IMG/VR virus record: IMGVR_UViG_2657245634_000007 | Location: 1-17,758 of that record | From: a virus | Taxonomy: Duplodnaviria; Heunggongvirae; Uroviricota; Caudoviricetes | Length of the DNA stretch: 17,758 bases | Direction: 5' to 3' (one strand) | Shown: positions 3,001-6,000 of the stretch, piece after piece | Position numbering within the stretch: the stretch's first letter is position 1 | How the letters are laid out: every line of letters starts with the position of its first letter | Made by a program: the position numbers

Positions 3001-6000
3001 CATCAGTTTTGCACCTTTGACGCCATATGCTGCGCATGCATCCCAGACATTACCGAGGATCTTGCTACTCATACGACACCTCCCAGACGCTTAAACATTT
3101 TTCCGGACTGAAACGCCACCAGCGGGTAACTCAGGGTATAAGTACGCCCCTGCACCTGGCAGACAACCTTCTGACTTTCTGCATTGACCAGGCAAACCCG
3201 CAGAACGAGGCCGTTGCTGGTGGTAAACCACTGCCCCACTCGGGGGCAACGGTTGTATCGGTGATACAGGAAATTAACGATGTGGCGGATCATGGACGCA
3301 CCTCCGCCGTAGTTACGTATTTAACCGGGCTACCTTTCATTGAGATGGTTTCACACATCTCTGCCGCTTTCAGTTCCGCTGTTTTTCTGGATTTATAGCG
3401 ACGGTGCCAGACAGATACATCCGTGCGAACTGATACATCGTTTCTGTATTCCGTAGTGGAGATGATGATTTCGTAACTAATCATGGGCGAACCTCCTTGT
3501 CAGAACCATTCAGCCTGGAATCAACAAGTGCAGCGCCAAAAACAGCATCACCAACACGGTCGTACAGTTTGCTAGCCAGCGGAGATTCAACGGCCTTAAG
3601 CATTGGATAAAGCTGGCTTGTCCAGATTTGATGGATTTCACGCAAATGCAGGTATACGCCTCTGGCGTTTCGTGCGACAGCTGACATATCAACCGCGTCA
3701 GCACCAGATAAATTCTTCTCCATCTGGTTAAAGGCGTTGATGTATGCCTCTTTGAACTGGGCAGCACGTTTACCAGTGAAGCCCATGGCAAGAAACGCAA
3801 AACCGTCGCGGGTGATTTGGTAACAAGGGAGTTTGCGGCCTGATGCGTCGGTGTATTCACTTAACACAAAATTGTGTTCAGTAAATTCAGCGGAACATTC
3901 GAGGTTTCTAATTCTATCTAAAACCCGCTCATGCCGTTTAGTAAAGTAATTAGCTACTGCAAGAGATGTGGTGACAACGCGACCATTGATAATCGTGATT
4001 TCAGGGCGAGATTGGGTTGGGAGAGTAGTCATGGTGACAGCCCCTATGTTGAATTCAATGAACTCACCACCAAGGCTTTCCACGACCATATAGGTGGTGA
4101 GACGTACAGGGGTGGAAATACCGGTCAACATAGAACCCGGCCCAACCGAAGTTGGCCCTGCACGCCCCACCATAATTTGGGCGTAACGATGCTCATGACA
4201 CGAAAAAACCGCATGAGCGCGGTTGTGCTCTATATTGAATTTCGGGTTTCCACGCCCGGCACCCGCTTTATAAGGTGCAGAGACAGTGTAACGTCCCGAA
4301 ATTGCAGAATCAATATTTGGTCTTGAAATGATCATATAGCTGCTGATATCTTTAGAACTGTTCTTGGATGTTTCGGAGCCGTTTTATGCGAAACAGCTCC
4401 CCGTTATTGATGTTGAGTGAGCCGGGTTACTCCCGGCTTTTTTTCATCGCTGCCAACCAATAACCTGAAATAACCCCATTTTCGGGTGATACCAGCGAGT
4501 CCCTCGCGGTTCTGCTTCCTCCATAACCCGATAAAAAGCAGCCATAAACGGTTCCACAGCAACAATTGCGCGACGTGACAACAATCCGTCCGGCGTCATG
4601 AACTCATGGGTGTCTGTAGGAATCTGATAGGCGTTCACCAGATTGCGGCATTTATCATCTGACAAACCGGTTTTTGCTTTCAGTTGGCGATATCCGGCAT
4701 AGCCCTCACGAATAGTGCCCTTTTTAATTTGCTCGACTGTTTCAGCAACGTGGCTGACTTTTTCTTCCACCTGAGTGATCCGTTTCTGTTGGCGAACGGC
4801 TTCAAGAGCCATCGCGGCAACCATTTCGATTTCGCTCATTGGCTTACGGATCTGTTCTTCCAGTTCGCGCCAGCGATCTACCAGGCTAGCAGTGAATTCA
4901 GGGCAGAGCTGTGCGACGACAATGATGCTGTCGCGCTTACCTTGTTCTCCTTCAAACAGGTAATGCTCATATTGAACTTTAAAACCTAAGTTATTGATTT
5001 TCTCGGAAACAGCCATTGGCGGTTTCCGGATGATGTTTTTAGCAACCAGGCGTTCGATACTACGTTTAACATCTGAGTGCTGACTACCCACCAGCTCTGC
5101 GATCTCAACGCTGGTCATGGATGCTTTGTCGTTAAAAATTGCGGTGTTCACTGCCATCTCCTTACGGATAAATTCTTTTAAGATTCCGCACATTCGTACT
5201 TATTGGTGCCGAACCTTCCTTCAGTTATCCTTTTGATCCCTATAAACAAAAGAACCAAAGGAGGTTCGACATGAAAGTTCAGGCCGTTGGTTTATTCTGG
5301 TTTCGCGATGCGATTCAGTATCATGAGCTCAAAAATATTTTTACTGATGCTGATGTGCTCTCCGACAGTTACACCGAGTGGAAACACGACGCTGAAAAAT
5401 TGATTAAGCGTGTCGAAAGAGGCGGGCAACGAGTTATTAAAGTTGAAGCGGATACAGCCGAGTTCATCACCTGGTGTACAAGCGAAGGCATTGGAATCAA
5501 TGCCGAAGGTAGAATGCAGTTCGCATCCTTTAAGGCTTACCAACAACTTCTCAGCGAACGCTAATGTGATCGGGGCAATCGAAATGGTTGTCCCATCGTA
5601 TTTAATAGTTATTTTTTCGCTCATATCACCACCATCACTTCCCATCTTCCGTGTGCGCTAGGCTTGGGTGTGTATATGGAATGCTCGGATCCAAATGACA
5701 AAGAATGGCAACATCCTCCGGAACACCTCGCGTTTTCCACTTTCCAACACCTTGACTGCCACGAGGCCTTCCTTTCTTTGGGAACCTGCGACCAATAGCG
5801 GCATTGGTTTTAAATTGAATTTTTAATATTTCATAAAGGGTCATTCTTTAGTCTCACACCAGATACTTTGTTATCCAACGATGTTAACCACAGGAATCCA
5901 AAGTATCAAGAAATTCTGTTACTTTAGTATCAACAACCATGAGAGGAGAAGAAAAATGAAGTCTTTAGGTGAACGTCTCATCAACGCACGGCAAAAAGCT

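What the first reader, a model, noticed from the sequence alone, without database searches (positions are those of the whole stretch)
5158..5955. No convincing Cro gene; a self-contained opposite-strand 97-aa gene sits where the lytic operon should begin
Between the repressor gene and the first clear lytic-operon gene (Rha-like, 4444-5157) there is no ORF with an HTH or a good SD on the minus strand. The only candidate is a 69-aa basic ORF (5635-5844) without an SD. Instead a plus-strand 97-aa gene with a very strong SD and its own predicted terminator is embedded antisense to the presumed pR transcript. The lysis-lysogeny switch may rely on the downstream Rha antirepressor-type proteins instead, or the 97-aa gene is a lysogen-expressed moron; its function is unknown.
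Basis: partly seen in the sequence, partly recalled or inferred. Interest (0 to 1): 0.45.

Follow-up and report, generated by a model that had tools for sequence, protein, structure and literature searches.

The report
Hidden Cro and an inserted moron
This phiP27-like E. coli prophage has an ordinary lambda-type genetic switch whose Cro protein is too divergent to recognise by eye, and the opposite-strand 97-aa gene is a real but optional accessory cassette of unknown function dropped in between cro and the next lytic gene.

Summary

**The 69-aa ORF (5635-5844, -) is Cro.**
- It is a conserved family. Its AlphaFold2 model (pLDDT 91) best matches the N15, Xfaso-1 and P22 Cro structures.
- It diverges from a LexA-like cI across three 14-bp operators. 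A second operator triplet follows cI.
- In relatives with the identical cI protein, its stop overlaps the start of the Rha gene.

**The 97-aa ORF (5271-5564, +) is a real gene.**
- pN/pS is 0.15 in its frame and 0.97 in the antisense 117-aa shadow ORF.
- It lies in a ~490-bp cassette (about 5154-5642) with a weak conserved promoter, a strong SD and a strand-specific hairpin.

**The cro-rha slot has four states in E. coli:** empty, this gene, a BssS-family gene using the same promoter-SD-ATG platform, or phiP27 L13. The cassette is therefore an optional moron, not part of the core switch.

**The protein itself is uncharacterised.**
- The family has about 1,100 cluster representatives, no Pfam model, no solved relative and no confident fold.
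- It recurs on the repressor strand beside cro in distant temperate phages, but also occurs in non-phage chromosomal contexts.

Function is unknown. My best guess is a lysogen-expressed accessory or protective protein.

The parts
4444..5151 (-). First Rha/Roi-like early gene of the PR operon. This is the left flank of the slot.
   Evidence: It matches Pfam Phage_pRha and phrog_63. RefSeq places it at 4444-5151. In relatives with an empty slot, its start overlaps the cro stop.
5154..5642 (.). Inserted accessory cassette (moron): promoter platform, 97-aa ORF and hairpin.
   Evidence: Homology to empty-slot E. coli SF-088 breaks at 5153 and resumes at 5643. For phiP27 the breaks are 5177 and 5641, and for Stx2_12E129_yecE 5162 and 5643. 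The part conserved across genera is about 5202-5615.
5203..5231 (+). Candidate sigma-70 promoter of the cassette: TTGGTG, 17 nt, TATCCT.
   Evidence: Its position and core bases are conserved in E. coli, Klebsiella, Salmonella, Pectobacterium and Serratia cassettes. It is weak (7/12 to consensus) and fell below the threshold of the scan. No cI-operator-like or LexA-box-like site lies here.
5258..5264 (+). Shine-Dalgarno sequence AAGGAGG of the 97-aa gene.
   Evidence: Read directly from the sequence. The platform 5158-5273, up to and including the ATG, is 99.3% identical in E. coli cq9, where it drives a BssS-family ORF instead.
5271..5564 (+). 97-aa protein gene (phrog_4753). It belongs to a large uncharacterised family.
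   Evidence: It matches phrog_4753 at E 3e-49. Substitutions at codon positions 1:2:3 are 247:106:590. pN/pS is 0.15. A profile search finds 1127 cluster representatives at E<=1e-3. There is no Pfam, NCBIfam, PADLOC or PDB hit.
5292..5645 (-). Antisense 117-aa shadow ORF. It is not a gene.
   Evidence: pN/pS is 0.97 and amino-acid identity among orthologs is 58%, against 83% in the sense frame. The frame stays open because the sense gene has only one TTA codon and no CTA or TCA codons.
5572..5594 (+). Conserved G+C-rich hairpin followed by a T-rich tail (to about 5620). It is the 3' end or partial terminator of the cassette transcript.
   Evidence: The scan flagged it as terminator-like. All 81 stem cells pair across 9 distinct variants, with G-C/G-U/A-U exchanges. 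It is stable only as + strand RNA. The U-tract is not adjacent to the stem, so termination efficiency is uncertain.
5635..5844 (-). cro: 69-aa basic protein with an all-alpha HTH fold (phrog_4749).
5862..5931 (.). OR: three 14-bp operators at 5862-5875, 5894-5907 and 5918-5931.
   Evidence: Five of the six window matches to GWWWC-N4-GWWWC fall in the two intergenic regions that flank cI. Shuffles give 1.2 matches for the whole window. OR1 is a one-base variant found as repeat I12.
5881..5909 (-). PR-like promoter for cro (TTGATA, 17 nt, TAACAT).
   Evidence: Found by the promoter scan. Its -35 hexamer overlaps OR2, and OR1 covers the expected transcription start.
5956..6612 (+). cI repressor, LexA-like (HTH_3 plus Peptidase_S24).
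   Evidence: Pfam hits at E 1.7e-14 and 3.2e-22. The Ala-Gly site is at residues 97-98, GDSM at 133-136 and the lysine in FKKY at 176-179.
6640..6717 (.). OL: three operators at 6640-6653, 6675-6688 and 6704-6717, around a PL-like promoter (6663-6691, +).
6723..7139 (+). 138-aa HTH protein, the first gene of the PL-side operon. It is not Cro.
   Evidence: It matches HTH_3 at E 2.6e-11 and phrog_4739/phrog_4836.

Best explanation
The interval holds a canonical lambda-type immunity switch plus an optional inserted gene.

**(1) Cro.** The 69-aa minus-strand ORF is Cro. It is a sequence-divergent HTH protein of the P22/N15 all-alpha type, with a basic 5-6-residue insertion in the turn. It is transcribed from a PR-like promoter embedded in three operators that it shares with the LexA-like cI.

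**(2) The 97-aa gene.** It is the cargo of a ~490-bp autonomous cassette inserted exactly between cro and the first Rha/Roi gene. The cassette comprises a weak conserved sigma-70-type promoter, a strong SD, the ORF and a strand-specific hairpin. In ancestral-type relatives cro and the Rha/Roi gene overlap and are translationally coupled.

**(3) Inferred, not shown: regulation.** PR is repressed in the lysogen, so the cassette promoter should be free to fire then. After induction, strong convergent PR transcription should run through the cassette and shut it down. The gene would therefore be a lysogeny-phase accessory gene.

**(4) Inferred: target.**
- The protein stays 74-97% identical while the neighbouring Cro, repressor and downstream genes are swapped for unrelated ones.
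- Distant relatives also occur as lone chromosomal genes.
- It therefore most likely acts on a conserved host or incoming-phage target, not on this phage's own regulators.
- My ranking of roles is: protection or exclusion against other phages about 0.35, lysogeny-stabilising factor about 0.25, other host modulation about 0.4.
For: **Cro**
- The family is conserved, with invariant residues in helices 2-4.
- The operators are tripartite, OR plus OL, and the motif is enriched. PR lies in OR.
- The cro stop overlaps the rha ATG in Stx2_12E129_yecE and in E. coli SF-088. SF-088 carries the same cI protein, WP_000838344.1.
- Smith et al. 2012 (PMC3430580) already list a "Cro12" for P27.

**Gene reality**
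-.

**Cassette and slot**
- Homology breakpoints are given.
- E. coli shows four slot states: empty, 97-aa, BssS-family (Pfam E 1.3e-15) and L13-like.
- The promoter-SD-ATG platform is shared with the BssS cargo at 99.3% identity.
- The promoter and hairpin are conserved across genera, and the hairpin is strand-specific.

**Independence from the local regulators**
- The cassette sits beside at least four unrelated Cro types.
- No operator or LexA box lies in its promoter region.

**Family breadth and contexts**
-.
Against: **Against the Cro call**
- No sequence model recognises the 69-aa protein as Cro or HTH.
- hhalign against YdaS/P22-type Cro proteins is weak: E 0.024, probability 2%.
- The Cro call therefore rests on a predicted structure plus context. 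DNA binding is untested, and the SD is poor.

**Against the cassette reading**
- The cassette promoter matches consensus at only 7/12 and was not picked up by the scan.
- The hairpin lacks an adjacent U-run, so read-through toward cro and cI is possible.
- No expression data exist.
- The cassette's G+C content (0.43) does not differ from that of its neighbours.

**Against a merely accidental insertion**
- The family recurs at the same place and orientation in phages as distant as Blastomonas and Burkholderia hosts. This hints at a position-linked role.

**On the 97-aa protein**
- The 97-aa structure model is poor (pLDDT 66) and gave no fold match.
Confidence: 0.78

Rival explanations
1. One reading: the phage has no Cro, and the lysis-lysogeny decision is taken by the downstream Rha/Ant-type proteins.
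For: - No Pfam or NCBIfam HTH hit exists for any minus-strand ORF in 5158-5955.
- Two Rha-family genes follow.
- A C4/isrK RNA module typical of antirepressor control lies at 4090-4278.
Against: - The 69-aa protein has a predicted Cro fold.
- It sits at the canonical position, with tripartite operators and a PR promoter.
- cI carries a full self-cleavage motif set.
- Relatives couple the 69-aa homolog directly to the Rha gene as first and second genes of one operon.
Confidence: 0.04
2. The 97-aa unit is a working part of the switch, analogous to lambda PRE/oop. Its promoter fires toward cI from beyond cro. Transcripts are antisense to the PR message and, by reading through the imperfect hairpin, antisense to cro and sense for cI. 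The protein itself would promote or stabilise lysogeny.
For: - It always lies on the repressor strand, upstream of the repressor and convergent with cro. This holds in 29 of 31 IMG/VR loci and in the Blastomonas locus, L057, L058 and phage EKP1.
- In Bcep176 the homolog lies in one co-directional cluster with the HTH gene.
- The hairpin has no adjacent U-tract.
- phiP27-type phages lack cII and cIII (PMC3430580).
Against: - Phages with the identical cI, and near-identical cro, lack the cassette entirely.
- Others carry an unrelated BssS-family or L13 gene on the same platform.
- Family members also occur as lone chromosomal genes far from any phage.
- The protein is conserved while Cro and CI partners vary.
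Confidence: 0.15
3. The minus-strand 117-aa ORF (5292-5645) is the real gene, a cII-position gene following cro. The 97-aa ORF would then be its shadow.
For: - It runs in the operon direction and overlaps the cro stop.
- Gene callers chose the antisense ORF in Pectobacterium and in the deposited annotation of phage EKP1.
- The antisense translations of the window and EKP1 still align at 33% identity.
Against: - Substitutions concentrate on its codon position 1 (590:106:247).
- pN/pS is 0.97, against 0.15 for the sense frame, and amino-acid identity is 58% against 83%.
- There is no PHROG family for it.
- Its openness is explained by the single TTA and absent CTA and TCA codons in the sense gene.
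Confidence: 0.02

Closest known systems
All-alpha Cro proteins of P22, N15 and Xylella prophage Xfaso-1 (PDB 1rzs, 2hin, 3bd1)
   Same: - Similar size, about 60-70 aa.
- First gene of the early-right operon, divergent from a cI-type repressor across three operators.
   Different: - Sequence identity is 10-17%.
- It is not detected by the Pfam P22_Cro, YdaS or HTH_3 models.
- It carries a conserved basic insertion (FPKKGRPRG) between the two HTH helices.
- Its SD is weak.
Morons of lambdoid phages (autonomous promoter-gene-terminator units inserted between genes that are adjacent in relatives; the Hendrix/Juhala concept, from my own knowledge)
   Same: - The insertion lies exactly between two genes that overlap in relatives.
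- It has its own promoter-like element, SD and hairpin.
- It is optional and replaceable.
   Different: - It sits inside the early-right operon, directly after cro and antisense to it, rather than in the late region.
- One promoter-SD-ATG platform is shared by unrelated cargo ORFs.
- Its G+C content is not distinctive.
Lysogen-expressed protective genes of prophage immunity regions (lambda rexAB; BstA, PMC8585504; Gifsy GiPD474 and remAIN, PMC12724215)
   Same: - It lies next to the repressor/cro module, on the repressor strand, and is optional among relatives.
- The literature states that immunity regions often hold defence genes.
   Different: - There is no homology to any PADLOC model.
- At 97 aa it is very small and has no recognisable enzymatic or membrane domain.
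- No phenotype is known.
Lambda oop RNA / PRE transcript (leftward transcription units antisense to the PR operon; from my own knowledge)
   Same: The promoter lies downstream of cro and points toward cI, and the transcript is complementary to the PR message.
   Different: - It encodes a protein under purifying selection.
- It is absent from phages with the same immunity.
- No cII partner exists.
- A hairpin lies between it and cro.
Prophage BssS-family genes (Pfam PF13991)
   Same: They occupy the same slot, in the same orientation, on the same promoter-SD-ATG platform in E. coli cq9 and UMNF18.
   Different: The protein is unrelated (hhalign probability 0.3%) and has its own canonical terminator.

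Membership tests
Cro (lambdoid early repressor, P22/N15 all-alpha type) | A small protein encoded as the first gene of the early lytic operon, divergent from the immunity repressor. | tested here: met
   The 69-aa ORF begins 111 bp from cI on the other strand and is followed by Rha, replication and Q genes. In relatives it overlaps the next gene.
Cro (lambdoid early repressor, P22/N15 all-alpha type) | Helix-turn-helix fold of the lambda-repressor-like / all-alpha Cro class. | tested here: met
Cro (lambdoid early repressor, P22/N15 all-alpha type) | Sequence membership in a Cro/HTH profile (Pfam P22_Cro, YdaS, HTH_3). | tested here: not met
   No hit was found for the window protein or for any of the 34 family members. 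hhalign against YdaS/P22-type Cro proteins gives E 0.024 and probability 2%.
Cro (lambdoid early repressor, P22/N15 all-alpha type) | Multiple shared operators between cro and cI that overlap PR and PRM. | tested here: met
   Three 14-mers lie in OR and three in OL. The motif is enriched against shuffles, and the PR -35 hexamer overlaps OR2.
Cro (lambdoid early repressor, P22/N15 all-alpha type) | Binds the operators and represses PRM. | not testable with these tools
   This needs EMSA or footprinting, or reporter fusions.
Moron (autonomous accessory transcription unit in a phage genome) | Lies between two genes that are adjacent in related phages. | tested here: met
   Empty slots with overlapping cro and rha occur in Stx2_12E129_yecE, PhiR49_2 and E. 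coli SF-088, and many E. coli genomes show a 572-bp span instead of 1041 bp.
Moron (autonomous accessory transcription unit in a phage genome) | Own promoter. | tested here: inconclusive
   TTGGTG-17-TATCCT matches consensus at 7/12 and is conserved across five genera, but it falls below the scan threshold. No transcription-start data exist.
Moron (autonomous accessory transcription unit in a phage genome) | Own terminator. | tested here: inconclusive
   The hairpin is conserved, strand-specific and stable, but its U-tract is separated from the stem. The BssS cargo in the same slot has a canonical terminator.
Moron (autonomous accessory transcription unit in a phage genome) | Expressed from the repressed prophage. 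| not testable with these tools
   This needs RNA-seq or a reporter in a lysogen.
Known anti-phage defence systems (PADLOC-DB v2) | Profile match to a catalogued defence protein. | tested here: not met
   The only hit is spurious: BrxC at E 0.026 over 34 residues.
BssS family (PF13991) | Profile match. | tested here: not met
   The 97-aa protein has no Pfam hit. The family profile against slot-mate BssS gives probability 0.3%.

The most novel reading that the evidence does not exclude
The 97-aa protein may represent a large, unnamed family of about 1,100 clusters at 50% identity. Temperate phages from alpha-, beta- and gamma-proteobacteria repeatedly place it on the repressor strand directly behind cro, convergent with the lytic promoter. 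Under this reading the placement is functional: expression is wired to the lysogenic state by transcriptional interference from PR. The protein would be either a new single-gene anti-phage or exclusion factor, or a general lysogeny-stabilising factor acting on a conserved host target.
Probability: 0.2. Interest if true: 0.65.

Novelty: new member of a known kind. Interest (0 to 1): 0.33.

Why it matters
**It removes a false anomaly.** phiP27-like prophages, including Stx-converting relatives, do have a Cro. It belongs to a family that sequence profiles miss, so genome annotations label it "hypothetical protein".

**It defines an exchangeable-cargo slot between cro and the first Rha/Roi gene.**
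- The slot has a fixed promoter-SD-ATG platform.
- It is a useful landmark for finding lysogen-expressed accessory genes in E. coli prophages.

**It flags an unstudied small-protein family.** The family is abundant and shows a striking positional preference in phage switch regions. It is a reasonable candidate for screens of prophage-encoded protection or lysogeny control.

**It records an annotation trap.** The antisense shadow ORF is sometimes annotated in place of the real gene.

Tried and rejected
**Sequence profiles**
- Pfam, NCBIfam, PADLOC and PDB-sequence profile searches on both small proteins gave nothing usable.

**Structure of the 97-aa protein**
- The AlphaFold2 run used only 14 close homologs and gave pLDDT 66.
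- The afdb50 library was unavailable.

**Context searches**
- The single genome-contig scan returned only one species, Phytobacter diazotrophicus.

**Specific hypotheses tested and dropped**
- Antisense ORF as the real gene: rejected on pN/pS.
- A cI operator or LexA box controlling the cassette promoter: none found.
- Relation between the 97-aa protein and its slot-mate BssS: none.
- A G+C anomaly in the cassette: none.
- Strict compensatory covariation in the hairpin: only one-sided changes were seen, not distinguishable from shuffles.

**Literature**
- Searches by RefSeq accession and by topic found no study of this protein.
- The original phiP27 paper is not held in the library.
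Full report
**What the window is**

The window is a phiP27-like lambdoid prophage of E. coli.
- Region 5158-5955 is 100% identical to E. coli O111:H21 strain 15A and about 95% identical to phage phiP27 outside one replaced segment.
- On the minus strand lie the early-right genes: cro-position ORF, two Rha-family genes, O-like, DnaC-like, DnaB-like and Q.
- On the plus strand lie a LexA-like repressor (5956-6612; HTH_3 plus Peptidase_S24), a 138-aa HTH protein, the early-left genes, xis and int.

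**Checking the observation**

- The 97-aa ORF has AAGGAGG 6 nt upstream of its ATG.
- It is followed by a hairpin that the consensus scan flags as terminator-like.
- The 69-aa ORF is basic, pI 9.9, and has only a weak SD.
- The statement that no ORF here encodes an HTH protein does not hold.

**The 69-aa ORF is Cro**

- It belongs to phrog_4749 (E 5e-49).
- It has 42 homologous clusters in Escherichia, Klebsiella, Citrobacter, Salmonella, Yersinia, Providencia, Photorhabdus and Xenorhabdus at 64-97% identity. A near-invariant core reads NAAIGRRFP.KG..R..Q.VGKW..RGVPEDVAILCH.
- AlphaFold2 on this alignment gives pLDDT 91 and pTM 0.76, with five short helices.
- Sequence methods miss it. There is no Pfam hit for any of 34 members, and hhalign against a small YdaS/P22-Cro set gives E 0.024.
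- That hhalign alignment nevertheless pairs helix 2 and the recognition helix correctly.

**The context is canonical**

- The 111-bp cro-cI spacer holds three 14-bp sites: GATACTTTGTTATC, GAATCCAAAGTATC and GTTACTTTAGTATC. Three more follow cI.
- Five of the six window matches to GWWWC-N4-GWWWC lie in these two spacers, against 1.2 expected for the whole window.
- A PR-like promoter on the minus strand has its -35 hexamer inside OR2. A PL-like promoter sits among the OL sites.
- cI has an Ala-Gly site, GDSM and a lysine.
- In Stx2a phage Stx2_12E129_yecE and in E. coli SF-088, the 75-aa homolog's stop overlaps the ATG of the Rha/Roi gene (ATGA). SF-088 encodes the very same cI protein, WP_000838344.1. 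This is the arrangement expected for the first two genes of one operon.
- Smith et al. 2012 (PMC3430580) already list a "Cro12" for P27, while noting that N, cII and cIII are absent.

**The 97-aa ORF is a real gene; the antisense ORF is its shadow**

- Among orthologs from five genera, substitutions fall 247:106:590 on codon positions 1:2:3 of the plus frame.
- Median pN/pS is 0.15 in the plus frame and 0.97 in the open antisense frame. Amino-acid identity is 83% against 58%.
- The antisense frame stays open because the gene uses one TTA codon and no CTA or TCA codons.
- Gene callers sometimes pick the shadow. This happened in a Pectobacterium contig and in the deposited annotation of phage EKP1.

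**It is the cargo of an optional cassette**

- Homology with empty-slot relatives breaks at about 5153 and resumes at about 5643.
- Across Klebsiella, Salmonella, Pectobacterium and Serratia prophages, the only conserved DNA is about 5202-5615: upstream element, ORF and hairpin.
- A survey of 5,426 complete E. coli genomes shows four states of the cro-rha slot:
  - empty, with many genomes showing a 572-bp span instead of 1041 bp;
  - the 97-aa gene;
  - a BssS-family gene (Pfam E 1.3e-15);
  - a phiP27 L13-like 223-aa gene.
- The BssS cassette of strain cq9 is 99.3% identical to the window from inside rha through the promoter region, the SD and the ATG (to 5273). It then diverges and ends in its own canonical terminator. 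The slot therefore carries a fixed expression platform with exchangeable ORFs.
- The candidate promoter, TTGGTG-17-TATCCT (5203-5231), is weak but positionally conserved across genera.
- No cI-operator-like or LexA-box-like site lies in the platform.
- The hairpin keeps all nine inner pairs in nine sequence variants through G-C/G-U/A-U exchanges.
- It is stable only as plus-strand RNA: -17.2 kcal/mol, z -3.1, against -7.0 kcal/mol, z -0.6. It therefore belongs to the cassette transcript and should not block PR transcription. Its U-rich tail is not adjacent to the stem, so termination may be partial.

**What the protein is**

- It has no Pfam, NCBIfam, PADLOC or PDB-sequence match.
- A profile search of 1.84 billion cluster representatives finds 1,127 relatives at E<=1e-3. 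Most are about 95-105 aa and a few hold two or three tandem copies.
- The consensus is G..W[FY]...Y......D...LP.[ST]Y..W...AE.......G..V.K...[DE]..EF..WC...G...[DN]A.[GA]R..FA, with W10, D26, W37, G52, W68, C69 and R81 nearly invariant.
- The only structure model was built from 14 close homologs. It is poor (pLDDT 66) and finds no fold.

**Genomic contexts**

- Close homologs always lie convergent with cro, 73-150 nt from it.
- They sit beside at least four unrelated Cro types and different repressors and downstream genes.
- Distant homologs (25-37% identity) show related arrangements:
  - on the repressor strand, just past a small minus-strand gene divergent from the repressor, in a Blastomonas prophage and two metagenomic phage-like contigs;
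  - directly after the HTH Cro gene in phage EKP1;
  - in one co-directional cluster with the HTH gene, divergent from a CII-like gene, in Burkholderia phage Bcep176.
- Other relatives, the abundant 101-aa subgroup, are lone chromosomal genes with no phage neighbours.

**How it most likely works**

- *Shown:* the cassette is autonomous, optional and independent of the particular Cro/CI pair. The protein is under purifying selection.
- *Inferred:* in a lysogen PR is off, so the weak cassette promoter can fire. On induction, convergent PR transcription through the cassette should suppress it. Expression is thus tied to lysogeny without any dedicated regulator.
- *Inferred:* the phage's own regulators vary while the protein does not, and relatives exist outside phages. 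The target is therefore probably a conserved host or incoming-phage component.
- Immunity regions are known homes of prophage defence genes (PMC12724215; PMC8585504). I therefore rank a protective or exclusion role first (about 0.35), a lysogeny-stabilising role second (about 0.25), and other host modulation, as with slot-mate BssS, as the remainder.
- The main rival is a PRE/oop-like regulatory unit. It is kept alive by the conserved position and orientation and by the imperfect terminator. It is weakened by the natural empty-slot and swapped-cargo phages that share the same immunity.

**Verdict**

The anomaly is resolved. The switch is an ordinary lambda-type switch with a sequence-divergent Cro, plus a moron in an unusual but recurrent place. 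The residual interest lies in the uncharacterised protein family and its positional bias.

Noticed in passing
window 4090-4278 (-): Rfam gathering-level hits to C4 antisense RNA (RF01695, 4090-4177, 82 bits) and isrK Hfq-binding RNA (RF01394, 4202-4278, 62 bits). Both lie inside the N-terminal "Phage_ASH" part of the annotated 284-aa Ash+Rha ORF (3481-4335). This looks like a P1 immI-type (c4 RNA controlling ant) or Gifsy-1 isrK-anrP-type antirepressor control module within the PR operon. The ORF's 5' third may be RNA genes rather than coding sequence, since the Rha domain alone starts after about 4029.
   Followed up: partly
window 4421-4444 (+): A clean intrinsic-terminator-like element lies on the plus strand (GCCGGG-TTACT-CCCGGC followed by T7), exactly at the 3' end of the minus-strand Rha gene. 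It would stop plus-strand (antisense) transcription coming from the isrK/C4 region. It is not a terminator for the PR direction.
   Followed up: no
L062 1493-1950 (E. coli cq9); L064 (E. coli UMNF18): A BssS-family gene occupies the same cro-rha slot. It uses the same promoter, SD and ATG as the 97-aa gene (99.3% identity up to window 5273) and then has its own canonical terminator. Cargo exchange happened precisely at the start codon.
   Followed up: yes
L061 3501-3935 (phage EKP1, OM284015.1); L008 4911-5354: The deposited annotation of phage EKP1, and a gene call in a Pectobacterium contig, take the antisense shadow ORF instead of the plus-strand family member detected by tblastn. This is a recurring misannotation of the family.
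   Followed up: partly
window 7308-7535 (-): A second small opposite-strand gene (75 aa, RefSeq WP_000606214.1; phiP27 also has a small minus-strand gene, L09, at the corresponding position) is embedded antisense in the plus-strand early-left operon. It has no Pfam hit.
   Followed up: no
window 5151-5157 (-): The first Rha/Roi-like gene probably starts at GTG 5151, not ATG 5157. The SD AAGGAG lies 7 nt upstream of the GTG, and GTG 5151 aligns with the ATG start of the empty-slot relatives.
   Followed up: partly
window 5252-5267 (-): A weak terminator-like element lies on the minus strand (GAACC-TCCTTT-GGTTC followed by TTTTGTTTAT), inside the cassette's 5' leader. If functional, it would attenuate PR transcription just before the Rha gene, like lambda tR1. 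It does not appear conserved in the Klebsiella cassette.
   Followed up: no
L001 6833-7504 (phiP27 L13): The alternative 223-aa slot cargo of phiP27 has no Pfam, PHROG or PADLOC hit. It contains a hydrophobic stretch (LVTFIWTVSAFGLGAWLGHWLA) that looks like a membrane segment.
   Followed up: no
P0061, P0067, P0080 (family members): Some relatives of the 97-aa protein carry two or three tandem copies of the domain separated by coiled-coil-like linkers (206-506 aa). This hints that the domain works as an oligomer or as a binding module.
   Followed up: no
window 6723-7139 (+): The first gene after the OL/PL region is a 138-aa HTH protein (DicA-like, phrog_4836 "CII-like regulator"), not an N-type antiterminator. 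Its C-terminal half is the right-hand homology boundary for immunity-region swaps (window 6936 onward).
   Followed up: partly
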